Shown here piece after piece: positions 53,118 to 64,000 of a stretch of 64,000 bases of DNA. A program made the position numbers and the translations under genes. Where the stretch lies: positions 32,001-96,000 of the forward strand of contig CAVUVW010000019.1 in NCBI GenBank assembly GCA_963745035.1. Direction: 5' to 3'. The notes under the pieces were generated by a model that saw nothing but the letters and a program-made list of their open reading frames with translations, was not told where the DNA came from and did no database searches. Source of the stretch: an uncultured delta proteobacterium (GTDB lineage Bacteria; Desulfobacterota; Binatia; UBA9968). Every line of letters starts with the position of its first letter. Positions within the stretch are counted from its first letter, which is position 1.

Positions 53118-54365
53118 ATGCTGTCGAGCCACGAGAACGAGTTGCTGACCCGAGTGGGGCGGGAGACGCCGATGGGCGCATTGATGCGGCGGTACTGGAT
53201 TCCCGCGCTTCTCGCGGAGGAAATCCCGGTCCCGGACTGCCCGCCGGTGCGAGTGCGGTTGCTGGGCGAAGACCTGGTCGCTTTCAGAGATTCCAACGGC
53301 AGGGTCGGCTTGCTCGGCGAGCACTGCTCTCATCGTGGCACCTCGCTGTTCTTCGGGCGCAATGAACTTTGCGGCCTGACCTGCATCTATCACGGCTGGA
53401 AGTATGACGTGGACGGCAACGTACTGGATACGCCGGCCGAGCCCGCGAGCAGCGACTTTAAGCGCAAACTCCGGCATACCGCCTATCCGTGCAAAGAAGT
53501 CGCCGGGATTGTCTTCGCGTACTTGGGACCCGCCGACAGACAGCCGGTGTTGCCGCGCTACGAATGGTTCGATCTCGACGCCGCGCAAGTCTACCCCGTG
53601 AAGTCGTATCTCCAATGCAATTATCTGCAGGGCATCGAGGGCGACTTCGATTCGTCGCACACGTCGTTTCTGCACAACAACGATCTTACCAACGCGGAGA
53701 CTTTGAAGCGCGACGGCGCGCCGGTCCTCGAGGCCGAGGAAACCGCCTACGGCATGAGAGCGGTATCGATCCGCAAGGCAGGCCCGCAGCGCATCTACGT
53801 GCGCACCAGTCCGTATATCCTGCCGTCGTTCAGCATCGTGCCGGGCCCGCCGACGGAAAAGTTCGACGACGACGATATTCGCGGCTTTCGTTTCTGGGCG
53901 CCGATCGACGACCGGACGACCTGGCTTTACATTCTCAACATGCGCAAGCGGCCCTTCACGGCCGAAGAGCGGCTGAGTCTGCGGAGCTGGATCGCCGCCG
54001 ATTACCGGCGAGTGCGGAACGCGTCGAATAATTATCTCCAGGATCGGGAGCGGCAGCGAACCATCAACTACACGGGCATCGACGCGGTCAATCCCGCCGA
54101 GCAGGACGGCTGCGCGACGGAGAGCATGGGCGTGATCTGCGACCGCACTCAAGAACATCTCGGTTACAGCGACAAGACCATCATTGCGCTTCGTAAGATG
54201 CTGCTCCGAGCGACAAGCGATTTGGCGGAAGGAAAAGATCCGCCGCATATCATTCGTGAGGGTCAGGACGACGATTTTTCACGGTTGCGATCGATCAAGG
54301 GCGTCTTGCCGGCGGGCGCGGACTGGCGCAAGGTGTTGGAGGGGATGGGGCCCAATGACGGGTGA
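53118..54365 (+). CDS. Rieske non-heme iron oxygenase alpha subunit (phthalate 4,5-dioxygenase-like)
   Basis: CSHRG...CIYHGW Rieske motif; EGDFDSSHTSFLH mononuclear iron site; EHLGYSD. Confidence 0.92.
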   Translation: MLSSHENELLTRVGRETPMGALMRRYWIPALLAEEIPVPDCPPVRVRLLGEDLVAFRDSNGRVGLLGEHCSHRGTSLFFGRNELCGLTCIYHGWKYDVDGNVLDTPAEPASSDFKRKLRHTAYPCKEVAGIVFAYLGPADRQPVLPRYEWFDLDAAQVYPVKSYLQCNYLQGIEGDFDSSHTSFLHNNDLTNAETLKRDGAPVLEAEETAYGMRAVSIRKAGPQRIYVRTSPYILPSFSIVPGPPTEKFDDDDIRGFRFWAPIDDRTTWLYILNMRKRPFTAEERLSLRSWIAADYRRVRNASNNYLQDRERQRTINYTGIDAVNPAEQDGCATESMGVICDRTQEHLGYSDKTIIALRKMLLRATSDLAEGKDPPHIIREGQDDDFSRLRSIKGVLPAGADWRKVLEGMGPNDG

Positions 54366-54457
54366 GTATACTCGGTTCAAGCCGTTCAAATCGTTCCAGG
54401 CGTTCAAGTGGTTTCGGGTTCTTCAGTTTCCAGCTTAGAGTCTCGCGGATTGGAATC

Positions 54458-55504
54458 ATGCGAAATAAACGTCCACGTCAGGTCGCTAAGTTTGCACTTT
54501 TGACTCTAATCATTTGCACCGCATCTCCATCGGTTGCTCAGCCGCTGCAGAAAGCCGTCGCCATGGTCGGCGCGCGCAGCGGCGCATCATGGCCTCTTTG
54601 GATCGCTAAGGACGCGCGCCTTTACAGCAAGTATGGACTCGACGTGGAGTTGGTTTACGCCGTTCATCCTGGACCCATTGCGGCGATCATCAGCGGCCAC
54701 GCGGCGATGACTTCGGCAGGGAGCGATCCGGCGCTCCTCGCGGCCGCGAAGGATCCGTCCTTGGTGGTGCTCGGCGGTTTCATGAACAAGGGCTCGTTCG
54801 CGATGATCGGCTCGAAAACCGCGACGGACATGAAGCAGGTTTCCGGCAAGAAGATCGGCGTGGGTCGAGTCGGTGATCCGCCGTATCACATGGCGGTCAG
54901 CCTGTTGAAGAAGTACGGCATGACGGCGCGCGATGTGCAGTGGGTTTCCATCGGCGTCGATGCGGCTGCTCGCGCGGCAGCTTTACAGACGGGGCAGGTG
55001 GACGCGGCATTGATTACCGCGCCCGCCTATTTTCGGCTGCAGGCCGCCGGCCTGCCGGTGCTGGCCGTATTGCTCGATCACGAAGATATTTACGTCTCGA
55101 CCTACTATCTTTTTCGCCGCGACGCATTGACGAAAGATCGGCCTATGGCGACGGCTTTTATCAAAGCACACGCCGAAGCGATCAAGCGGTTTTATGACGA
55201 CAAAGCATTCGCGACTTCTATCATGATCAAATACGGTGGCACGCGGAACGCGGACGATGCCAATCGCGTCTACGATCTTTTTCAGAAGGCGCGTGTGTTG
55301 GAGCCGATCCCTTACGCTTTGAAAGGATCTGTGGAGGCGGTCGTCGAGCGCCAGGGACAGGACTTAAAGGGCGCCGACTTCTCCAAGATGATCGACAATA
55401 GTCTGGTGGATCAACTGGTCAACGAGAAATATTTCGAAACGGTTTTCGGCTCGGCGATCCGCGACGAGCAAAAGCGCCGGCAGGCGCGGGCGTTTGGAAG
55501 GTAG
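54458..55504 (+). CDS. ABC substrate-binding protein, NMT1/SsuA-like
   Basis: Signal peptide, KYGLDVEL, GKKIGVGRVG, IDNSLVDQL. Confidence 0.85.
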   Translation: MRNKRPRQVAKFALLTLIICTASPSVAQPLQKAVAMVGARSGASWPLWIAKDARLYSKYGLDVELVYAVHPGPIAAIISGHAAMTSAGSDPALLAAAKDPSLVVLGGFMNKGSFAMIGSKTATDMKQVSGKKIGVGRVGDPPYHMAVSLLKKYGMTARDVQWVSIGVDAAARAAALQTGQVDAALITAPAYFRLQAAGLPVLAVLLDHEDIYVSTYYLFRRDALTKDRPMATAFIKAHAEAIKRFYDDKAFATSIMIKYGGTRNADDANRVYDLFQKARVLEPIPYALKGSVEAVVERQGQDLKGADFSKMIDNSLVDQLVNEKYFETVFGSAIRDEQKRRQARAFGR

Positions 55505-55526
55505 CGTCCGCGTGTGTCCGCGCCAC

Positions 55527-56529
55527 CTAGGAGCGCTTTTGCAGCGATTTAAAAAAGCCCTGCTTCTCCAGCTCGCGCAGGACATCTTCGTTCATGAATT
55601 CCTGCGCTTTCCTTCCTTTGGCATCGGCCCTGCTGTTGCCTAGATCGTCCACGACAACCTGAATCCCGGAAACTTCGCTGTAGGGCGGATAAGAAATTCT
55701 CGGCGCATAGCTCTTATAAGCACTGTCCAGCAAGGCCTTGTCCTGAGTGCGCATCCATTTGGAAAGACTTTTTTGGCCGAGAGCCGGATCGTTCTTGAAA
55801 ATATAAATCCCTTCACCGATCCCCTGCAGAAAACTTCGCACGAGGCCTCGCTTGGACGACTGCAGAGTCCTGGTCGTCATCAGACTGACGGTTGGAAACG
55901 AATCCGCCAATTCGCCCAGATCAAGCATGACCTGCATTCCGGAGGCTTTCGCTCGGTCGACGAAAGCGCCGGTGAGTACGGTGGCGTCGACCAGGCCATT
56001 TTGCAGCGCCGCGAGGCGGTCCCGGCTGCCGCCGGCGCGCACGAGGGTGACGCTCTTCTCATCGACGCCCCAGTGCCGCAGCGCCGTTGCGACGACGATC
56101 TGATTCAAGCCGACGACGGAAAGAACCCCGACCTTCTTGCCGCGCAAATCTTGCGGCGAGCGGATGCCGGGGCGGGCAACGAAACTGTAGGTATGCTTGT
56201 TGAAATAGGTGCCGATAATGATGATGTCGGCTCCCGAGAGATTCGCCGCGATATGGGGTTGCGGCGCGACCACGTCGAATTGAATCTCGCCGCCGGTCAG
56301 GGCGTGCGTCGACTCGGCGCCGCCGCGAAACAGAATCGGCTCGAGATTGAGCCCATACTTTTTGAATAAGCCGAGATCGACGGCAAGCCAAAGGGGAATC
56401 TGGTACCCGGAGATGCCGCTGTAACCCGCGCGCACCCGCTCTTGAGCGCGGCGGCACCGCGGCAGTGCAAAGATCGTCAAGCCCGCCAAAGCAACAGTGC
56501 AGAAAGCAATAAATCCGTTTGTGCTTCAT
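55527..56529 (-). CDS. ABC substrate-binding protein, NMT1/SsuA-like (ATG at 56529 is out of frame by one base)
   Basis: GLFKKYGL, DLRGKKVG, ELEKQGFF; removing one A after the ATG gives a continuous signal peptide MSTNGFIAFCTVALAG. Confidence 0.8.
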
Positions 56530-56605
56530 GAGCCTACCTTTTTCCGATGACTGACGGCAGCGGAAGATGAGCAAAAAGCCAAACGACTCTCTACCGTCGG
56601 ATGAA

Positions 56606-57451
56606 TCATGCCCGGTGCGACAGCGGCCAGCGCAGCCATTCGGCGAGCGCCCGGCCCATTATCCATTCTTTGTCTTGGGCCGATAGAAAATCCAGCTCTT
56701 CGGTAAACAATGTGACTGCCTGGCGATAGGAGCAGGGGAGCTGCGAGAGATCCGTGCCCCAGAAAAGCCGTTGCGGCCCGAAAGTTTCGACGACGCGGCG
56801 AATCTGCGGATGCAAGGTCGGATAGGGATAAGCTTCGTCGACGTAGCAAGGGAGACAAGAAACTTTGACTCCGACGTTCTTGAAGCGCGCGAATTTGAGC
56901 AAGACATCGACGCCGGGTCCGAGATCCTTGCCTTTCCATTGCACGTTGAGCCCCATATGGTCGACGATCACGCGCAGATCGGGATGACGTGCGGCAATCT
57001 CGCCGATCTTCGCCACCGCGAAGGGCGCGAAAATCATGACCGGAATATCGTGGCGCTCGCAGTCCGCCCAGAACCAGTCCGCCGTGCCGTCATCGAGAAA
57101 CGAATGGGTGCCGCTGTGACGAAAACTGATGCGAAAACCCAGCATGCCCGGCTGTTTGAGCCAACTGGCGACGCGCCCTTTGCTCGCAGGATCGTTGAGC
57201 GGCACTTTGCCCATGACAGCAAAGCGATCGGGATATTTTTGCGCCGCTTCGAGCGCGTAATCATTCCGATAGCCTTCCCACGAGGGCGGCACCAAAATGA
57301 CCCGATCAACGCCTGCTGTCGACATTTCGCGCAGCAAATCTTCGTAGCCTAAAGGCACCGGACGGTGCGGCTTGGACGCATCTTCTTTGATGTACGGCCG
57401 CTCAGGACTTTCCGGCTTCCAGATGTGAACTTGCGCGTCGATGATGGTCAT
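56606..57451 (-). CDS. Amidohydrolase-2 family protein
   Basis: IIDAQVHIW, VDHMG, FGPQRLFWGTD. Confidence 0.9.
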   Translation of the reverse strand: MTIIDAQVHIWKPESPERPYIKEDASKPHRPVPLGYEDLLREMSTAGVDRVILVPPSWEGYRNDYALEAAQKYPDRFAVMGKVPLNDPASKGRVASWLKQPGMLGFRISFRHSGTHSFLDDGTADWFWADCERHDIPVMIFAPFAVAKIGEIAARHPDLRVIVDHMGLNVQWKGKDLGPGVDVLLKFARFKNVGVKVSCLPCYVDEAYPYPTLHPQIRRVVETFGPQRLFWGTDLSQLPCSYRQAVTLFTEELDFLSAQDKEWIMGRALAEWLRWPLSHRA

Positions 57452-57460
57452 TGGACTAAA

Positions 57461-58451
57461 TTATTTTCCGCTATTCACTTGCCGCACGAAGCGGTCGTCG
57501 AAGAACTGTGAGGGTTTGGCGGTCTTGGCTTCGGGGATCGTTTCGGAAAGAAAATCGAGCATGCCTTGCAGGCCCGGCTCGGACGTGACCAGCTCGCGGC
57601 GAAATCCCGCCTTCTTGTAGAATTCGTAGGTGCGGTCGAGAACTTCCTGATCGTTCTCCTTGGTGTATTTGCCGATCACTCTCGTGGCGAACGGCTTGTC
57701 GGCGTAGTAGCGCTCTATCCCTTGACGCACCGCACGCAGCAGCGGGGTGAGCCGGCTCGCCAGCTCATCGATACGGCTCCGTCTCACGACCAAGCCGACG
57801 TTTTGATAGGGCACATCGAGAAGGCTGACCATCGAATGAAAACCGGAGCGCTCCATTAGAAAACTGGCGGGCGGCGAGCCCACGCCGCCGACGATCTGTC
57901 CGGCATAGAAAGCGGCGACGATTTGCGGGCTGCTGCCGAGGGGGCGAAGTTGAACATCCTTCGCGGTGAGCCCCATTTTCTTTAGCGCCACCATCGTGCC
58001 GTACGCCACAGGGGTGCCGGGTCGGTCCGTGCCGACGATTTTTCCCTTCAGCTGTTCGACGCTTTTGATTTCCGGCCGGGCGTAAAAATCCCAGATCATC
58101 GTGTTGAGGAGGCCGGCGATAAAGACGACGTCGACGCCTCGAACCGAAGCGGTGATCACCGGCGCGGCGGAAACTTGCACGACGTCGAGCTCGTTGGCGA
58201 TCAGCGCCGGGTATCGCGGCGGTCGAAGGCATGGAAATCACCTCGGTATCCAGACCTTCCTTGGCTAACGCGCCGCTTTCCTTCGCCATCCAGACCGAGG
58301 CCATGGTGGCCGAAGTGCTCAGGTAGGCGATGCGTAAAGGCCGGGCCGAGCGCGCGCTCGTTTGCGCGCTGAGTGGCGCGGCGCTGGCGCAGATCAGCGC
58401 GAGCGGCAACAGTACCCTGGACAAAGCAGAAATGGTTCCTGTCCTAATCAT
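57461..58451 (-). pseudogene. NMT1/SsuA-like substrate-binding protein with one frameshift near 58210, possibly a sequencing indel
   Basis: Signal peptide and KEGLDTEV in one frame; IPALIANELDVVQVSAAP continues in another. Confidence 0.8.
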
Positions 58452-58691
58452 GGGATAGTTTCCTCTTATCGGCTGTCAGCCAAATGGGGCGGCCACGAGT
58501 TGTAACACCTAGGTCATCGCGGCGGTCGCTGAGCGGATTGCGATCAGGTCGACCATCGGTTTACAAGGGCATAGCTCGTGCGCTATGAGTACAAACACCC
58601 CAGGACAGAAGCCGCAGCAGGATAGTAAACAATCGCACGAGCCCGGCGTCTATAAAGACGGACGGCGGAAGATAGAAAACCAGGAGGCGCT

Positions 58692-58853
58692 ATGAAAGGC
58701 TTGCCGGGAACTCTGTTGGCGCTCGCATTCGCCTGTTTCTCTTTGATTTCTCTGATCTCCATAAATCGCGACTGGGATAGCGCATTGGTGCAATTGACCG
58801 CTGACGAGTCGAAGCTTTCGGAGCTCGGGCTCCGCTTCGTTATACGGCCTTAG
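58692..58853 (+). CDS. Putative 53-aa secreted or membrane peptide
   Basis: AGGAGG RBS; MKGLPGTLLALAFACFSLISLISINRDW...RP*; below the ORF-track size cutoff. Confidence 0.5.
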   Translation: MKGLPGTLLALAFACFSLISLISINRDWDSALVQLTADESKLSELGLRFVIRP

Positions 58854-58919
58854 CGGCGCTCACTCCAAACGCGTTCGCGCGCCAATTCGCAATCCGCACC
58901 GGAATCCCGTGAAATTCCA

Positions 58920-59480
58920 TCACGGCGTCGACCGCACCGCCGGTCGATCGAGCAGGCGTTCCATCCACCCCTTCACATGGGGCAGGTCGCTGCCGATGGT
59001 CGTCTGATAACGCTGCAGGCGACAAAAGAACGGGATGTAAGTAATATCGGCGAGGGAATACTCGCCGGCGATGTAGCGCCGGTCGCGCATCTCCCGATCC
59101 AGGTTCTCCAGATAGCCGCGCAGCCGTTCTTTCGATTTCTCCACCTCATGATCGTGAGCGATGTAGCCCGCAGCCGCCTGCAGGCGCGTATTGCAGTAAT
59201 CGATCCAGATGCGGGCGCGGGAGCGCAGCACTGGATCGCTCGGCATCAGCGGGACCTGCGGATATTTCTCTTCCAGATATTCGTTGATAATCGCCGACTC
59301 GTAGATGACGCCCTCGCCGTCTACCAGCACCGGAACCTTGCCGTACGGATTGAGCTCCAATAAGTCTTTGGGCTTGTTCGAGAGATCGCACTCGATGAGT
59401 TGGTGGGGAATCTTTTTCTCGGCCAGGACAATCCTTGTCCTGTGGGCGTACGGTCAAGGTTGATAAGAATAAAGCTTCAT
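58920..59480 (-). CDS. Glutathione S-transferase (omega/SspA-like) with predicted selenocysteine at residue 9
   Basis: MKLYSYQP-TGA-PYAHRTRIVLAEKKIPH...LNPYGKVPVL...ESAIINEYL, in frame with the track ORF 58920..59360. The TGA occupies the Cys position of the CPYAHR motif. GGAGG RBS and ATGA coupling to the upstream gene. Confidence 0.85.
59424..59442 (-). promoter_or_regulatory. Bacterial SECIS-like hairpin
   Basis: mRNA CAGGACAA-GGA-UUGUCCUG (8-bp perfect stem, G-containing loop) starts 11 nt after the UGA at 59454-59456. Confidence 0.75.
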
Positions 59481-59881
59481 AACGATCCTCCCTTATATGA
59501 TTTAGCTTCAGTGTCGCCGCCAAAACGCTGGGTATGAATCACTGCCCTGCGGTGCAATCCTTCGCCGATCTTTACCCCCTCGTCGTTGGTCGCCGACACG
59601 GAGTAGCGAAGTTTATTTTCTTTCACTTCCAAAAGCTCGGCCCTGACCGTAACCTTCTGGCCGATCTTCGTTGGCGCCATGTGCCGCACGTCTACATGAA
59701 TCCCGACGGTCTGCTCGTTCGGATCGAGATAAGGCTCGGTCAATTCGACGCAGGTTCTTTCCATCAGGCCGATCATCGCCGGAGTCGAAAAAACATCCGC
59801 CTCGAGCTGGCCGGCGCGCATTTCCTGGGTGGTGGCGTAGGTGCGGGTGCGCGTGATGCCTGGCGCCACATCATTGGTCAT
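59477..59881 (-). CDS. FlK-like hotdog-fold thioesterase
   Basis: VFSTPAMIGLME, TVG..V.VRHMAPT, GEGLHRRAV, carrying the Thr/Glu/His triad. Confidence 0.9.
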   Translation of the reverse strand: MTNDVAPGITRTRTYATTQEMRAGQLEADVFSTPAMIGLMERTCVELTEPYLDPNEQTVGIHVDVRHMAPTKIGQKVTVRAELLEVKENKLRYSVSATNDEGVKIGEGLHRRAVIHTQRFGGDTEAKSYKGGSL

Positions 59882-59990
59882 ACGGCGAATATACGGGAGT
59901 TGCCGAGCCGGAAGCAACACTACCGTTGAACGATGTGACCGCGCAGAAATTTAATGTTATGAGAAGACAAACCAAGAAGGAGCGCCGAAC

Positions 59991-61031
59991 ATGCTATTGC
60001 CGTTCCGGGAACATCTCGATTTCGGCCCCACGCCCTACGACGTTCTCCAGGCCGAGGAGGGGATTCCGATCATCAAAGGGAACGTCGTGCACGACGTCAC
60101 GACCTTGGAGCTGGCTCCCTGGAAGCGCATGGGAGCGCTGGGCTGCTATCTCAATCTTTCCAATCAACAGCAGACCGATGCGTACGTCTGCGAGATTCCG
60201 CCCGGCAGTGAAACCCTGCCGCAGCGCCATCTGTTTGAAGAAATCATCTACGTGGCCAAAGGGCGCGGCGCCACCGCCATCTGGCAGGACGGCACCGGCA
60301 AGGTGACCTTCGAATGGGGCCCGGGAGCGATCTTCGCCATCCCGCTCAATTCCTCCTACGTTCACTACAACGGGTCCCGCGACGAGGCGGTGCGGCTGTT
60401 TGCGGGCACCACCTGCCCGCGCATGATCAATATTTTTCACAACCAGGAATTCATTTTCCGCAATCCCTTCAATTTCCGTGACCGCTTTCATCAAGGCGAT
60501 GATTTTTTGAGGTTCAATAAACACATCACGGACCGGTATTGGGAAACCAACCTGGTTCCGGACGTAAATCAATTTCCGCTCGACGATTTTCCGATGAAAG
60601 GGAAGGGTGTGCGGCACATGCGCTTCACCTTGGCGGATACGACTTACGGCTGCCACGTTTCGGAGTTTCCGCCGGGCTGCCGCAGCACTTTTCACCGCCA
60701 CGGCCCGGGCGCGGTGATCATCATCACTCAAGGCGAAGGCTACGTCATGCTCTGGAAAGACGGCGAGGAGCGGAAGCGCCATGAGTTCAAGGTCGGCACG
60801 GTCTATTCGCCGAACGACCTCATGTGGCACGGCCACTTCAATACCGGCAAGGGCACCATGCGCCACTTTGCCATGCGCGGCGACAGTCCCAAGTACAGCC
60901 ACGACCGCTTCCGCAATCCGCTCTGGACGATGATCCCCATGGAAGACGAAACTCCGGAGATTCAAAAAGAGTATGTACGCATTCTCGCGGAGAAAGGAGT
61001 CGAGGCGGCGGTGCAGGTGGTTGAAGATTGA
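59991..61031 (+). CDS. Bicupin protein (gentisate 1,2-dioxygenase-like)
   Basis: QRHLFEE..YV..GRG, FHRHGPG, WHGHFN. Confidence 0.85.
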   Translation: MLLPFREHLDFGPTPYDVLQAEEGIPIIKGNVVHDVTTLELAPWKRMGALGCYLNLSNQQQTDAYVCEIPPGSETLPQRHLFEEIIYVAKGRGATAIWQDGTGKVTFEWGPGAIFAIPLNSSYVHYNGSRDEAVRLFAGTTCPRMINIFHNQEFIFRNPFNFRDRFHQGDDFLRFNKHITDRYWETNLVPDVNQFPLDDFPMKGKGVRHMRFTLADTTYGCHVSEFPPGCRSTFHRHGPGAVIIITQGEGYVMLWKDGEERKRHEFKVGTVYSPNDLMWHGHFNTGKGTMRHFAMRGDSPKYSHDRFRNPLWTMIPMEDETPEIQKEYVRILAEKGVEAAVQVVED

Positions 61032-61076
61032 CCGTATAACTCAGTAGATGAACCCAGAGCAAACAAGGAGGCTGCC

Positions 61077-62120
61077 ATGGTGAATTGTCCGGTGATCGAT
61101 GCCGACGGGCATGTGTTGGAGAAGGAAAAATATATTCGCAAATACCTTGAAGCTCCCTGGAACAAGCGCTCCACGTCGCTGCGCACCCGCGACCAGCCCT
61201 GGGACGCCAATCTCTTCGATAGCTTCGACATGGCGGTGCGCTGGGAAGACTTGAGCCCAAAGGAGCAGATCGATGAGTGGCATGCGGTGATGGAGCGGGA
61301 GGGGATGGAGTACGCCATTTGTTTTCCTACCGGCTCGGGCAACGTCTCGAAGATACAGGAGCTGGATTTCGCGCTCGCCGTGGCGCGCGCGTGCAACACC
61401 CATTTCGCCAAGGAGTTCAACGCGCTCTCCGACCGGGTGAGCTGCGTCGGCGTGCTTCCGCTGCGTGATCCCAAGGCCGCGGCCGAAGAGCTGCGGCGCG
61501 GCGTGACCGAGCTGGGATTGAAGGGGTTCGAAATCTTGCCGATGGGTTTGCCCATGGCGCTCGGCAGCACGTTTTACGATCCGGTTTATGCCGAGGCGGA
61601 AAAGTTGGGCGCGGTGATCGGCATCCACGGCTCGCGCAGCAACTCGCACGAGATCGGCGCAGCAAATCTATCGACCTTCGCCGAAGTGCACTCCTATGCA
61701 TTCACGGTCGGTTTGCTGCTTCAGTTCACTCACGTCGTATGCCAGGGCTTGCCGGTGCGCTTCCCCAACTTGAAATTGGCTTTTTTGGAGATCGGCGCGA
61801 CGTGGCTGCCGTACTATCTGGACCGCTTGGATGAGCACTGGGAAAAGCGCGCCAAGCACGAGATGCCGCTGCTGAAAGAGAAACCTAGTGATCTGGTGCG
61901 CAAATCGAAGATGTATTTCAGTCTGGAATCGGGCGAGTCGCTGCTGCCGGAGTCGATCAATTATCTCGGCGCGGAGCATTTCCTGTACGCCTCGGACATC
62001 CCGCATTGGGACAACGAGTTTCCGGGCAATCTCCACGCGCTGAGAAATCATCCACGAATTTCCGACGCCGATAAGGAAAAGATTCTTTACAGCAACGCGA
62101 AGGCACTGTTCGGTCTGTAG
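61077..62120 (+). CDS. Amidohydrolase-2 family protein
   Basis: IDADGHVLE, IGIHG, FLEIGATWLP, YASDIPHWD. Confidence 0.9.
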   Translation: MVNCPVIDADGHVLEKEKYIRKYLEAPWNKRSTSLRTRDQPWDANLFDSFDMAVRWEDLSPKEQIDEWHAVMEREGMEYAICFPTGSGNVSKIQELDFALAVARACNTHFAKEFNALSDRVSCVGVLPLRDPKAAAEELRRGVTELGLKGFEILPMGLPMALGSTFYDPVYAEAEKLGAVIGIHGSRSNSHEIGAANLSTFAEVHSYAFTVGLLLQFTHVVCQGLPVRFPNLKLAFLEIGATWLPYYLDRLDEHWEKRAKHEMPLLKEKPSDLVRKSKMYFSLESGESLLPESINYLGAEHFLYASDIPHWDNEFPGNLHALRNHPRISDADKEKILYSNAKALFGL

Positions 62121-62159
62121 GATCGTCCGGTCGATTGGTTCCAGATCGTGAGGATTAGC

Positions 62160-63173
62160 ATGAATTATCTCCGGGTGAACGTACGAAAACTCCGTGCTGT
62201 CTGTTTACTGATCGCATCCCTAGCAGCGCCGAATGCAGCTAGGGCGGCGGACAAGCTGGTAGCTTTGTATTCCGCGCATGCCGTTCCCTACGCGATGCCT
62301 TGGGTGGCGGAGGAATTGGGGCTGCTGAAGAAATACGACATCGATTTGGAGTTCGTTTATATACCGTCGTCGTCGGCCGCGACGGCGGCGCTTCTTGGCG
62401 GCAACGTCGAGATCGCATTATTGGGAGGTGTCGGCATCGTCAATGCATACGTCAACGGTGCCTCGGACGTGGTGTTCATCGGCAGCATAAAGAACATCAT
62501 GACTCAGAGCATTCTGGCCAAGCCCGACGTTACCAAGTTGGAGCAGCTCAAAGGCAAGCGCGTCGGCGTGACCCGCATCGGCAGCAACACGCACTACTTC
62601 ACGGTCCAGGCGTTTCGCCGCGCCGGCATGAACACGGACAAGGACATTATCTTCATTCAGACGGGCGGCGAAGCGGAAACCGTAGGCGCTCTCGTCAGCG
62701 GCCGCATCGATGCCGCGACTCTGCTGCCGCCGAGCGACGGCAAAGCGCTCGCTCAAGGATTCCGTTATGTCGTATTCGGGCCGGATATCGGCATCCCTTA
62801 CGCTGCATCGACGATTACGACGCGCCGTTCGGTGATCGGCAAGCGCGGTCCGGTCCTAGGCCGCTTTATGCGCGCCATGGCAGAAGCCTCCAGAGCGATG
62901 CATCGCGACCGGGAAATCGTTTACCGCGTGATGGAGAAGAAGCTGCGAATCAAAGATCGAGCCGTTCTAGAAAGCAGTTACAACATCGAGATGAAGGTGA
63001 TGGAGCCGCGCCTGGAAATCAAGCCTCAGGCGCTGCAGCCGATGATCGAAGAGGTCGCGAGAAATAATCCGCGGGCCAACGATGTCAAGCCGCAGGATTT
63101 GATGGACCGCCGGTATCTCGCTGAAATGGAGAGTAGCGGGTTTTTCAAACAGCTGTGGAACGAGAAGCGCTGA
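62160..63173 (+). CDS. ABC substrate-binding protein, NMT1/SsuA-like
   Basis: Signal peptide, LKGKRVGVTRIGS, EMESSGFF. Confidence 0.88.
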   Translation: MNYLRVNVRKLRAVCLLIASLAAPNAARAADKLVALYSAHAVPYAMPWVAEELGLLKKYDIDLEFVYIPSSSAATAALLGGNVEIALLGGVGIVNAYVNGASDVVFIGSIKNIMTQSILAKPDVTKLEQLKGKRVGVTRIGSNTHYFTVQAFRRAGMNTDKDIIFIQTGGEAETVGALVSGRIDAATLLPPSDGKALAQGFRYVVFGPDIGIPYAASTITTRRSVIGKRGPVLGRFMRAMAEASRAMHRDREIVYRVMEKKLRIKDRAVLESSYNIEMKVMEPRLEIKPQALQPMIEEVARNNPRANDVKPQDLMDRRYLAEMESSGFFKQLWNEKR

Positions 63174-63180
63174 CGTACAA

Positions 63181-63251
63181 CGATCGAGGATAGAGGATGG
63201 AAGATGGAGGATCCAATTTCGCCATCCTCTAGCCTCGATCCTCCATCCTCG
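63181..63251. repeat. Heptamer (GAGGATG/CATCCTC) tandem repeats in inverted arrangement
   Basis: gaggatagaggatggaagatggaggat ... catcctctagcctcgatcctccatcctc between convergent genes. Confidence 0.7.
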
Positions 63252-63270
63252 GTCTCCTTCTTCTCTCGAG

Positions 63271-64000
63271 CTACCGCACCGGCAAATCGTCCTCCTTCAA
63301 GTTAAACCACTTCCGCGCGTTCTCGCCCAGGACGTGGCGCAGTTTGTCTTCGGTCATGCCGGGGATTTTCTCGACTTCGCGCACGGAGTCGGGAAATTCG
63401 GAATCCCAGTGGCGGTAGTCCGACGCGTACATGACCTGGGTGATGCCGATATCGTCGAGGACGTAGGGTAGGATCGTTTCTTCTGGCTCGCAGGTGAACG
63501 CCACTTGCGGGCTTTTGATGATTTCCGAAGGCTTGCGTTTGAGTAGCGGCCACTGCGGGCGCAGCTTATGGAAGTGCTCGTCCATCCGTTCGGACCAGAA
63601 AGGTAGCCAGCCGCAGGCGCCTTCCATGAAGCCGACTTTCAATTTTGGATAGCGGTCGAAGACTCCCTCTCCGATGAGATGCATGAGCGCGATCATCAAT
63701 TCGAACGGGAAAGACGTCATGTGCACGTAGCTGTACTTTTCCATGCGCTCGCTGCCCGCGCCCATCACCCCCCAAACTCCGTACTGGCCGTCGTGCTCGG
63801 TTTGCGGGTGGACGGACAGCGGCATGCCGATCTCCTGCGCCGCGGCGTACACCGGGTCGAATATGCGATGGCCCAAGTTGATGCCGTAAACGTTGGTCGG
63901 CAGCATGGCGCTGACAATCGAGCGATGCTGGGCGAGATATTCCAATTCTTTAACCGCTAACGCCGGCTCCTGCACGGGAATAAGTCCCACTCCTTTCAAG
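63271..64000 (-). CDS. Amidohydrolase-2 family protein, C-terminal part
   Basis: LSVHP, FMEGACGWLP, YASDYRHWD; the 5' end lies outside the window. Confidence 0.9.
   Translation of the reverse strand, partial: LKGVGLIPVQEPALAVKELEYLAQHRSIVSAMLPTNVYGINLGHRIFDPVYAAAQEIGMPLSVHPQTEHDGQYGVWGVMGAGSERMEKYSYVHMTSFPFELMIALMHLIGEGVFDRYPKLKVGFMEGACGWLPFWSERMDEHFHKLRPQWPLLKRKPSEIIKSPQVAFTCEPEETILPYVLDDIGITQVMYASDYRHWDSEFPDSVREVEKIPGMTEDKLRHVLGENARKWFNLKEDDLPVR

What the first reader, a model, noticed from the sequence alone, without database searches (positions are those of the whole stretch)
58920..59480. Hidden selenoprotein: GST with UGA at the catalytic Cys and a SECIS-like hairpin
Seen: the GST ORF extends 40 codons upstream through one in-frame TGA (59454-59456) to an ATG that has a GGAGG RBS and overlaps the thioesterase stop (ATGA). 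The TGA falls exactly at the Cys of the omega-type CPYAHR motif, and an 8-bp hairpin with a GGA loop starts 11 nt downstream. Established: bacterial Sec insertion uses a stem-loop just 3' of the UGA (about 11 nt in E. coli fdhF), and GST-like selenoproteins have been predicted from metagenomes but are little characterised. Inference: this is a natural Sec-GST that standard gene callers truncate.
Basis: partly seen in the sequence, partly recalled or inferred. Interest (0 to 1): 0.9.

Follow-up and report, generated by a model that had tools for sequence, protein, structure and literature searches.

The report
Selenocysteine glutathione transferase, truncated by gene callers
This gene encodes a glutathione-transferase-type enzyme that almost certainly has selenocysteine in place of its catalytic cysteine; it is a real but routinely mis-annotated member of a selenoprotein family that was predicted twenty years ago and has never been tested at the bench.

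Summary
A minus-strand ORF runs from ATG 59480 to the stop at 58920. It has one in-frame TGA (59456-59454, codon 9), and an 8-bp hairpin with a GGA loop begins 11 nt after it.

The selenoprotein reading is strongly supported:
- **Machinery:** the genome holds selA, selB, selD (itself with a TGA) and tRNA-Sec.
- **Conservation:** the TGA sits at the same column in 88 of 128 genome loci that cover it, in proteins 49-90% identical. It is also in 80 of 80 metagenome loci. The other 40 genome loci carry Cys or Ser there.
- **Hairpin:** it is built from codons that are rare elsewhere in the same genes. AGG fills 72/79 and 79/79 rows at the two Arg codons, against 5.6% of Arg codons elsewhere.
- **Natural control:** the one Cys revertant inside the Sec clade (L066) encodes the same peptide with the hairpin destroyed.

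The protein has a confident GST fold, with Sec at the N-cap of helix α1. Of the 120 best database homologues, 118 are truncated calls.

"GST-like" selenoproteins have been catalogued since 2005, so this is a new member of a known, uncharacterised kind. Selenium incorporation and enzyme activity remain untested.

The parts
58920..59480 (-). Complete Sec-GST coding sequence. It has 186 codons plus a TGA stop, with Sec at codon 9.
   Evidence: Translated with TGA=U. Pfam GST_N_2 E 1e-21, GST_N_3 E 3.1e-21, GST_C E 1e-10. The AlphaFold2 model has pLDDT 96.1.
59454..59456 (-). UGA codon read as selenocysteine, at the column of the catalytic Cys in Cys-type GSTs.
   Evidence: TGA is at this column in 88 of 128 genome loci that cover it and in 80 of 80 metagenome loci. 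It aligns with Cys in L066, P0122 and PDB 6v91/4hoj.
59424..59442 (-). Bacterial SECIS hairpin: 8-bp stem and GGA loop, starting 11 nt after the UGA, with 19 nt from the UGA to the loop.
   Evidence: -9.2 kcal/mol. It meets the four criteria of the published bSECIS model (criteria read; script). Its codons are frozen across 79 distinct rows. It is lost in the Cys revertant L066.
59487..59492 (-). Shine-Dalgarno-like GGGAGG, 6 nt before the ATG.
   Evidence: Read. A purine-rich GGAGG/GGGGA-type stretch precedes the start in the 30 relatives printed.
59477..59920 (-). Upstream FlK-type hotdog thioesterase gene. Its TGA stop overlaps the GST start (ATGA), so the two are probably co-transcribed.
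   Evidence: Pfam PF22636 E 3.2e-32. A thioesterase homologue lies within the available flanks in 18 of 88 Sec loci, and less than 160 nt upstream in 13 of them, two of those being one place fetched twice.

Best explanation
This is a genuine bacterial selenoprotein gene.

**How it is made (inferred from the standard bacterial Sec pathway; the components are shown to be present).** Translation starts at ATG 59480. At UGA codon 9, SelB carrying Sec-tRNA(Sec) docks on the mRNA hairpin 11 nt downstream (59442-59424) and inserts selenocysteine instead of terminating. The product is a 186-residue GST-fold protein.

**Where the Sec sits (shown by alignment and model).** Sec lies at the N-cap of helix α1, in the motif U-P-Y-A-H-R. 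This is the position of the catalytic Cys in Cys-type GSTs (SspA-like, omega and Grx2-like).

**What it does (inferred).** It most likely performs glutathione-dependent thiol-transfer, deglutathionylation or reduction chemistry. The expected route is a selenenyl-sulfide intermediate with glutathione that a second thiol resolves.

**History (shown by the tree).** The Sec form arose once from a Cys ancestor. It then duplicated into two paralogues, both kept in this genome. It reverted to Cys at least once, with decay of the hairpin.
For: **Machinery in the same genome**
- tRNA-Sec lies at C17:371273-371363 (76.7 bits against a cut-off of 47). ARAGORN calls it tRNA-SeC with anticodon tca.
- A selA-selB-selD cluster lies at C17:315081-319841 with intact frames.
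- NCBIfam scores against cut-offs are 592 vs 268, 347 vs 242 and 391 vs 125.
- SelD itself holds one in-frame TGA.

**TGA is not generally reassigned**
- selA, selB, the thioesterase and the GST itself all end in TGA.

**Conservation in related genomes**
- Among 41 related genomes, 58 matches are at least 49% identical. 57 of them hold exactly one TGA; the 58th starts at residue 15.
- 38 of the 41 genomes hold a TGA form.
- All matches at 46% identity or less hold none.

**Column check**
- TGA is at the same column in 30/30, 20/20 and 38/78 loci. The other 40 of the 78 have Cys (11) or Ser (29).
- It is in 80/80 metagenome loci.

**The part upstream of the TGA is translated**
- Codon 3 is Leu in 79/79 rows, using six different codons.
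- Codon 2 switches between AAA and AAG.

**RNA-level selection on the hairpin**

| Codon | Count at that codon | Share of the same codon elsewhere in the same 79 genes |
|---|---|---|
| AGG (Arg, codon 14) | 72/79 | 5.6% of 1042 Arg codons |
| AGG (Arg, codon 16) | 79/79 | 5.6% of 1042 Arg codons |
| ACA (Thr) | 72/79 | 6.0% of 516 Thr codons |
| ATT (Ile) | 54/57 | 21.6% |
| GTC (Val) | 79/79 | 37.9% |

- Flanking four-fold sites vary freely.
- Three rows carry compensatory changes at one stem pair: A-U to G-C in two rows and to U-A in one.

**Natural control**
- L066 has TGT and is sister to the Sec form L067 with SH-aLRT 99.
- It encodes the same HRTRIVL peptide, but three synonymous changes abolish the hairpin.
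- No qualifying hairpin was found in 10 of 11 Cys forms; L136 holds an unrelated one.

**Fit to the published bSECIS model**
- The model asks for a 3-9 nt loop, a 4-16 bp stem, G in the first two loop positions, 16-37 nt spacing and MFE of -7.5 or lower (passage read).
- The window's element passes all four.

**Protein**
- PDB sequence hits: SspA-like GST 6v91 at E 2.5e-33 and GSTO1 1eem at E 1.8e-24, with U aligned to their Cys.
- The model has pLDDT 96.1, with β1 at residues 2-5 and α1 at 10-21.
- Foldseek TM-scores are 0.86-0.93 to glutathione-bound GSTs.
- U/C9, P10, V49-P50 and E61-S62 are invariant in 38 rows.

**Assemblies**
- Contigs from two DNA studies and one RNA library span 59454-59456 without any difference there.
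Against: - **No direct evidence of selenium.** Nothing here shows selenium in the protein, and no enzyme activity was measured.
- **The hairpin is unremarkable in one sequence.** The fold z-score is -0.42.
- **Classical covariation is weak.** 5 of 8 stem pairs never vary, and only 3 cells are compensatory. 109 of 500 shuffles reach the observed number of pairs with a change on both sides. The RNA evidence therefore rests mostly on frozen rare codons.
- **Some relatives fall short of the model.** In my script, 15 of 79 Sec rows hold a 6-7 bp version that misses the -7.5 kcal/mol threshold.
- **The model alone is unspecific.** 8 of 40 non-Sec homologues (1 of 11 Cys, 7 of 29 Ser) pass it by chance with unrelated hairpins.
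- **No Rfam family matched**.
- **The reversal control is a single lineage.**
- **RNA support is weak.** It is one assembled contig from an RNA library, which does not prove transcription.
- **The relatives are kin, not independent samples.**
Confidence: 0.93

Rival explanations
1. The TGA is a real stop. The functional gene is the shorter ORF that gene callers report (TTG 59360 or a later start), and the upstream 40 codons are untranslated leader.
For: Table 11 gives a 146-aa ORF. Public gene calls of 134-177 aa dominate the database.
Against: - A product starting at codon 41 would lack β1, α1 and β2 of the thioredoxin-like domain.
- The 40 upstream codons are conserved as protein with synonymous variation in 79 distinct rows.
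- They align to the N-terminus of solved GSTs.
- An ATG with a Shine-Dalgarno-like stretch precedes codon 1 in all 30 printed relatives.
Confidence: 0.02
2. The TGA comes from a sequencing or assembly error, or marks a recent pseudogene.
For: None beyond the a priori possibility. Only assembled contigs could be laid on the stretch, not raw reads.
Against: - The same TGA is in 88 genome loci and 80 metagenome loci from many assemblies.
- It is in contigs from two DNA studies and one RNA library.
- The frame is intact on both sides, down to 49% protein identity.
Confidence: 0.01
3. The UGA is read through by something other than the Sec pathway: near-cognate Trp or Cys insertion, or a reassigned code. 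On this view the conserved hairpin only stimulates read-through or regulates translation.
For: One source's gene call reads W at the column (P0004). Nothing here shows selenium in the protein.
Against: - The genome ends well-defined genes with TGA.
- It carries the complete Sec machinery.
- The column is Cys in homologues, which is the classic Sec/Cys pair.
- The hairpin fits the bSECIS model in position and loop.
- The hairpin decays when the codon becomes TGT.
Confidence: 0.04

Closest known systems
GST / GST-like selenoprotein family of the microbial selenoproteome surveys: Sargasso Sea 2005 (PMC1088965), GOS 2008 (PMC2398784), and the 2026 review (PMC13188914)
   Same: It is a predicted bacterial selenoprotein with a GST domain (COG0625/PF13409) and one Sec, identified through a Sec/Cys pair plus a downstream hairpin. 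Its function is uncharacterised (passages read).
   Different: The published members came from marine metagenomes: 4 sequences in 2005 and 12 in 2008. Here the runs that hold the stretch are labelled soil, rhizosphere or winery metagenome, and relatives' record titles name Candidatus Binatia, Deltaproteobacteria and other MAGs. Two paralogues per genome are common. I could not see the published sequences, because figures are not held and supplements are closed. So I could not test whether their Sec sits at the same column, or whether this clade is a separate origin.
Cys-type SspA-like bacterial GSTs with bound glutathione (PDB 6v91, 4qq7, 4hoj)
   Same: These are the best sequence and fold matches (E 2.5e-33 to 5.9e-33; TM 0.86-0.89). 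Their motif T-C-P-F-S-x-R aligns with the U-P-Y-A-H-R motif here.
   Different: They have Cys, not Sec. About 34% of residues are identical. The NCBIfam SspA equivalog score is 119 bits against a cut-off of 314, so this is not SspA proper. The protein is also about 20 residues shorter at the C-terminus.
Omega-class GST (human GSTO1, PDB 1eem)
   Same: The fold is the same, and a catalytic Cys in a C-P-F-A motif sits at the N-terminus of α1, aligned with U9 (E 1.8e-24; fold hit 6mhb). The thiol-transferase and reductase chemistry of the class is recalled knowledge, not from a call.
   Different: It lacks the N-terminal extension of omega GSTs; the match starts at residue 25 of 1eem. It is not nearer to omega than to the tau or SspA-like classes.
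E. coli fdhF-type bacterial SECIS
   Same: It is a hairpin inside the coding region that starts about 11 nt after the UGA, with G in the apical loop (model criteria read).
   Different: The stem is shorter and perfect (8 bp) with a 3-nt GGA/GGC loop. No bulged U was seen. The sequence is nearly invariant across two paralogue clades.

Membership tests
Bacterial selenoprotein gene | In-frame UGA aligned with Cys in homologues (Sec/Cys pair) | tested here: met
   U9 aligns with Cys of P0122/L066 (GCPYAHR), of L114 and L117, and of PDB 6v91/4hoj.
Bacterial selenoprotein gene | Protein-level conservation on both sides of the UGA in TGA-bearing orthologues of other organisms | tested here: met
   88 genome loci and 80 metagenome loci carry it. 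Codons 1-8 are conserved with synonymous variation.
Bacterial selenoprotein gene | bSECIS hairpin just downstream: 3-9 nt loop, 4-16 bp stem, G in the first two loop positions, 16-37 nt from the UGA, MFE of -7.5 or lower | tested here: met
   The window's element has loop GGA, an 8-bp stem, 19-nt spacing and -9.2 kcal/mol (criteria from the passage). 64 of 79 distinct Sec rows pass. The other 15 hold a weaker 6-7 bp version.
Bacterial selenoprotein gene | Genome encodes selA, selB, selC (tRNA-Sec) and selD | tested here: met
   Found. All score above the curated cut-offs and all frames are intact.
Bacterial selenoprotein gene | Selenium physically present in the polypeptide | not testable with these tools
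   This needs 75Se labelling or mass spectrometry.
GST superfamily, Cys-type (omega / SspA-like / Grx2-like) | GST N-terminal thioredoxin-like domain plus helical C-terminal domain | tested here: met
   Pfam GST_N_2, GST_N_3, GST_N and GST_C all match. The model shows β-α-β-α-β-β-α followed by helices, with pLDDT 96.1. TM-scores are 0.86-0.93 to solved GSTs.
GST superfamily, Cys-type (omega / SspA-like / Grx2-like) | Catalytic Cys (here Sec) in a C-P-[FY]-[AS] motif at the N-terminus of α1 | tested here: met
   U9-P10-Y11-A12, with α1 spanning residues 10-21. The column and P10 are invariant in 38 rows.
GST superfamily, Cys-type (omega / SspA-like / Grx2-like) | Glutathione-site residues: cis-Pro (V-P) before β3 and the E-S pair at the start of α3 | tested here: met
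   V49-P50 and E61-S62 are invariant and align with the same residues of glutathione-bound 6v91/4hoj. Their role in binding glutathione is recalled knowledge, not from a call.
GST superfamily, Cys-type (omega / SspA-like / Grx2-like) | Glutathione-dependent enzymatic activity | not testable with these tools
Stringent starvation protein A (NCBIfam NF007016 equivalog) | Score at or above the curated cut-off of 314 bits | tested here: not met
   119.1 bits. It is not filed as SspA.
Published GST-like selenoprotein family (Zhang and colleagues) | GST domain (COG0625/PF13409) with a single Sec | tested here: met
   PF13409 at E 1e-21 and one TGA. The family rows were read.
Published GST-like selenoprotein family (Zhang and colleagues) | Sec at the same alignment column as in published members | not testable with these tools
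   The published sequences and figures are not held, and supplements are closed.

The most novel reading that the evidence does not exclude
The Sec-GST pair (this gene and its paralogue on contig C21) may be a separate, soil-lineage origin of selenocysteine within the GST superfamily, distinct from the marine GST-like selenoproteins. It is kept in nearly every genome of one bacterial order. Its 15-nt SECIS core is almost invariant in more than 160 loci, which would mean that this lineage's SelB reads sequence rather than only shape. The enzyme may act as a selenium-dependent glutathione lyase or thiol transferase in the catabolism of aromatic CoA-thioester compounds, as the overlapping thioesterase and the neighbouring Rieske, amidohydrolase and cupin genes hint.
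Probability: 0.15. Interest if true: 0.55.

Novelty: new member of a known kind. Interest (0 to 1): 0.4.

Why it matters
- **Annotation.** Public gene calls miss the catalytic residue and the first 9 to 52 residues of this protein in 118 of the 120 best database hits. Any functional inference drawn from those records is therefore wrong.
- **A good model for a first biochemical study.** No GST-like selenoprotein has been characterised. This one is small, folds confidently, has a natural Cys revertant and two paralogues, and carries a compact, well-defined SECIS.
- **SECIS evolution.** The frozen-codon hairpin and its decay in the Cys revertant give a clean natural example of a SECIS and its UGA appearing and disappearing together.
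- **Ecology.** Near-universal retention in one order suggests a selenium requirement tied to glutathione chemistry in that group. Runs labelled soil, rhizosphere or winery metagenome hold the stretch.

Tried and rejected
**Tried, with no useful result**
- **Rfam scan.** A scan of 59350-59500 at E up to 10 gave only a 9.3-bit chance hit to a lncRNA family. Rfam offered no usable bacterial SECIS model here.
- **Single-sequence fold significance.** Not significant, z -0.42.
- **Covariation as the main RNA evidence.** Too little variation to use: 5 of 8 pairs are invariant. I replaced it with the codon-usage contrast and the Cys and Ser controls.
- **Thioesterase neighbour as a functional clue.** A homologue lies in the flanks of only 18 of 88 Sec loci, mostly close orthologues. 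The link is lineage-local. The 20 loci had only 150 nt of flank, so they could not show it.
- **A LigG-like role.** No LigG entry appears among the 60 sequence hits listed or the fold hits listed. This remains speculation from the neighbours only.
- **A wider lineage.** An even draw of 150 other genomes of the same phylum gave 0 matches at E of 1e-45 or lower. The gene was not found outside the window's order in that sample.
- **Literature.** A search for 'Binat' plus 'selenoprotein' returned 17 papers, and none of the 10 listed was relevant. The deep-Sep paper holds no mention of GST.
- **Sequencing runs.** Only assembled contigs were available, no raw reads. Run X7 covered only 3 of 30 bins, so I draw nothing from it.
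- **Not run.** No complex prediction and no protein-representative search.

**Unpublished genome G005**
- G005 supplies two matches and locus L017.
- L017 is one of 30 loci, one of 79 rows in A1, and one row in the tree.

Full report
**What is in the sequence.**
- On the minus strand an ATG at 59480-59478 follows GGGAGG (59492-59487). It overlaps the TGA stop of an upstream FlK-type thioesterase ORF (59477-59920) as ATGA.
- The frame runs 186 codons to its own TGA stop at 58922-58920. It is interrupted once, by TGA at 59456-59454, which is codon 9.
- Table 11 gives only a 146-aa ORF from TTG 59360.
- Eleven nucleotides after the TGA lies a perfect hairpin: CAGGACAA, loop GGA, TTGTCCTG, at 59442-59424. 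It folds at -9.2 kcal/mol on its own.
- In a single-sequence test the fold does not stand out: z -0.42, with 61 of 200 shuffles folding as well.

**The genome can decode Sec.**
- The window lies on contig C19 of a 7.43-Mb assembly of 28 contigs.
- Contig C17 holds a tRNA-Sec (Rfam 76.7 bits against a cut-off of 47). ARAGORN calls it tRNA-SeC with anticodon tca.
- C17 also holds an intact selA-selB-selD cluster, with open frames of 511, 645 and 331+ codons.
- NCBIfam equivalog scores are 592, 347 and 391 bits, all above the cut-offs.
- SelD itself contains one in-frame TGA, as in many Sec-using bacteria.
- TGA still serves as a stop: selA, selB, the thioesterase and the GST all end in TGA.

**The TGA is conserved at the Cys column.**
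- The read-through protein was searched in 41 related genomes, and 40 had a match.
- Of 58 matches at 49% identity or more, 57 hold exactly one TGA. The 58th begins at residue 15. No match at 46% identity or less holds one.
- 38 of the 41 genomes hold a TGA form. It was not found in G001 (65% complete), G004 (92%) or G036 (93%).
- The codon was extracted in scripts. TGA is at the same column, within P/T/G-U-P-Y-A-H-R, in 30 of 30 and 20 of 20 loci.
- In a genome-collection scan with the Cys homologue P0122, 78 of 80 loci cover the column. Of these, 38 have TGA, 11 Cys and 29 Ser.
- The 80 best loci of a metagenome scan all carry TGA.
- Some loci from different calls are the same place. The 88 TGA genome loci give 79 distinct 87-nt rows.
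- Codons 1-8 are translated sequence. Codon 3 is Leu in 79 of 79 rows through six different codons.
- An ATG with a Shine-Dalgarno-like stretch precedes the frame in the 30 printed relatives, one codon further upstream in eight of them.

**The hairpin is under RNA-level selection.**
- Across the 79 rows the stem is paired in 96.5% of cells.
- Five of eight pairs never vary, and only one pair shows compensatory change: two rows G-C and one row U-A. Covariation in the strict sense is therefore weak.
- The stronger evidence is codon choice, summarised in the table below.

| Codon | Count at that codon | Share elsewhere in the same 79 genes |
|---|---|---|
| AGG (Arg, codon 14) | 72 of 79 | 5.6% of 1042 Arg codons |
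| AGG (Arg, codon 16) | 79 of 79 | 5.6% of 1042 Arg codons |
| ACA (Thr) | 72 of 79 | 6.0% of 516 Thr codons |
| ATT (Ile) | 54 of 57 | 21.6% |
| GTC (Val) | 79 of 79 | 37.9% |

- The Pro, Ala, Glu and Lys codons on either side vary freely.
- The published consensus model, read as a passage of PMC13188914, asks for a 3-9 nt loop, a 4-16 bp stem, G in the first two loop positions, 16-37 nt from the UGA, and MFE of -7.5 or lower. The window's element meets all four.
- In my script 64 of 79 Sec rows pass. The other 15 hold a 6-7 bp version above the energy threshold.
- 8 of 40 Cys or Ser homologues pass by chance with unrelated hairpins. The model alone is therefore weak evidence, and conservation at one fixed place is the real signal.

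**A natural control.**
- L066 carries TGT at the column and is 94% identical to P0122. In the tree it is sister to the TGA form L067 with SH-aLRT 99.
- It encodes the same H-R-T-R-I-V-L peptide as CAC AGA ACA CGA ATC GTC CTG. Three synonymous changes remove the hairpin.
- The more distant Cys forms L114 and L117 also lack it.
- The tree had 118 rows, with the Sec column masked. L105 and L117 were left out as too short, and duplicate proteins were collapsed.
- It places 80 Sec rows and L066 in one clade (SH-aLRT 90) beside Cys clades. Three state changes are needed in all.
- This fits one gain of Sec, a duplication into two paralogue clades, and one reversion.
- The window's genome holds both paralogues. 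The second is at C21:173950-174501, 61% identical, with the same hairpin.

**The protein.**
- Pfam finds GST_N_2, GST_N_3 and GST_C.
- The best NCBIfam model is SspA, at 119 bits, far below its cut-off of 314. No selenoprotein-specific GST model matched.
- The nearest solved sequences are Cys-bearing SspA-like GSTs (6v91, 4hoj, 4qq7; E about 1e-33), then tau and omega classes. U9 aligns to their Cys.
- An AlphaFold2 model built from a 38-row alignment has pLDDT 96.1 and pTM 0.91. It shows the GST thioredoxin-like domain, with U9 just before helix α1 at residues 10-21.
- It superposes on glutathione-bound GSTs at TM 0.86-0.93.
- U/C9, P10, V49-P50 and E61-S62 are invariant.
- From recalled knowledge of Cys-type GSTs, I infer glutathione-dependent thiol-transfer or reductase chemistry through a Se-S intermediate. 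This step is inference.

**Distribution and annotation.**
- Titles of related records name Candidatus Binatia, "Deltaproteobacteria" MAGs, Thermodesulfobacteriota, Syntrophobacteraceae and a few Verrucomicrobiota. Such MAG labels are coarse.
- An even draw of 150 other genomes of the phylum gave no match at E of 1e-45 or lower.
- Of the 120 best database proteins, 118 start downstream of the Sec column. One reads W there, and one is the Cys form.
- Runs labelled soil, rhizosphere or winery metagenome hold the stretch.
- Contigs of two DNA studies and one RNA library span the TGA without a difference there. The four differences that the X1 DNA contig shows inside the gene (three of them also in X2) fall at third codon positions or are a synonymous first-position Leu change, by my reading of the places.

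**Neighbourhood.**
- Around the gene lie a LigXa-like Rieske oxygenase, three Amidohydro_2 genes, a bicupin and several NMT1-like binding proteins.
- The thioesterase neighbour recurs in only 18 of 88 loci.
- This hints at aromatic catabolism but does not establish a role.

**Novelty.**
- A "Glutathione S-transferase" selenoprotein family is listed in the Sargasso Sea survey (4 sequences; table read) and in the GOS survey (12 sequences).
- It appears as "GST-like protein, PF13409, 1 Sec" in a 2026 review, which says such families remain largely uncharacterised.
- I saw passages and tables only. Figures and supplements were not available, so I could not test identity of the Sec column with published members.
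- The finding is therefore a real, well-supported new member of a known, predicted kind. It is possibly a separate clade.

**Limits.**
- There is no evidence of selenium in the protein, no activity data and no raw reads.
- The relatives are kin rather than independent samples.
- Genome G005 is unpublished, and no claim depends on it alone.

Noticed in passing
outside the window: G000 contig C21:173950-174501 (-), locus L048: A second Sec-GST paralogue in the same genome. It is 61% identical, has TGA at the same column and carries the same hairpin core. Most related genomes hold both paralogues.
   Followed up: yes
outside the window: G000 contig C17:315081-319841 (+), locus L146; tRNA at C17:371273-371363: A selA-selB-selD cluster in which SelD itself has one in-frame TGA (the Sec form of SelD). 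tRNA-Sec lies about 52 kb further along the same contig.
   Followed up: partly
window 57461-58451 (-): An NMT1-like solute-binding gene appears split over two overlapping frames. ORF 57765-58451 has a signal-peptide-like start followed by Arg-rich out-of-frame-looking text. ORF 57461-58180 matches NMT1 profile positions 53-211. This may be a frameshift or an assembly error.
   Followed up: no
window 53118-63999: A cluster that looks like aromatic-compound catabolism. It holds a Rieske/LigXa-like oxygenase (53118-54365 +), Amidohydro_2 genes (56606-57451 -, 61077-62120 +, 63271-63999 -), a bicupin (59991-61031 +), and NMT1-like binding proteins (54362-55504 +, 55527-56489 -, 62148-63173 +).
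   Followed up: partly
database protein P0004 (211 aa): One source's gene call reads Trp at the Sec column (GPWPYAHR) and starts 25 residues upstream. The caller probably used a TGA=Trp code on that contig. This is a second kind of mis-annotation besides truncation.
   Followed up: no
loci L107-L145 (Cys and Ser homologues): 8 of 40 homologues without TGA pass the published bSECIS consensus criteria by chance, with unrelated hairpins. The consensus alone has low specificity on this gene family.
   Followed up: yes
locus L091, about 30 nt after the GST gene's end: In one relative the thioesterase homologue lies just downstream of the Sec-GST instead of upstream, so the pairing recurs in a different order.
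   Followed up: no
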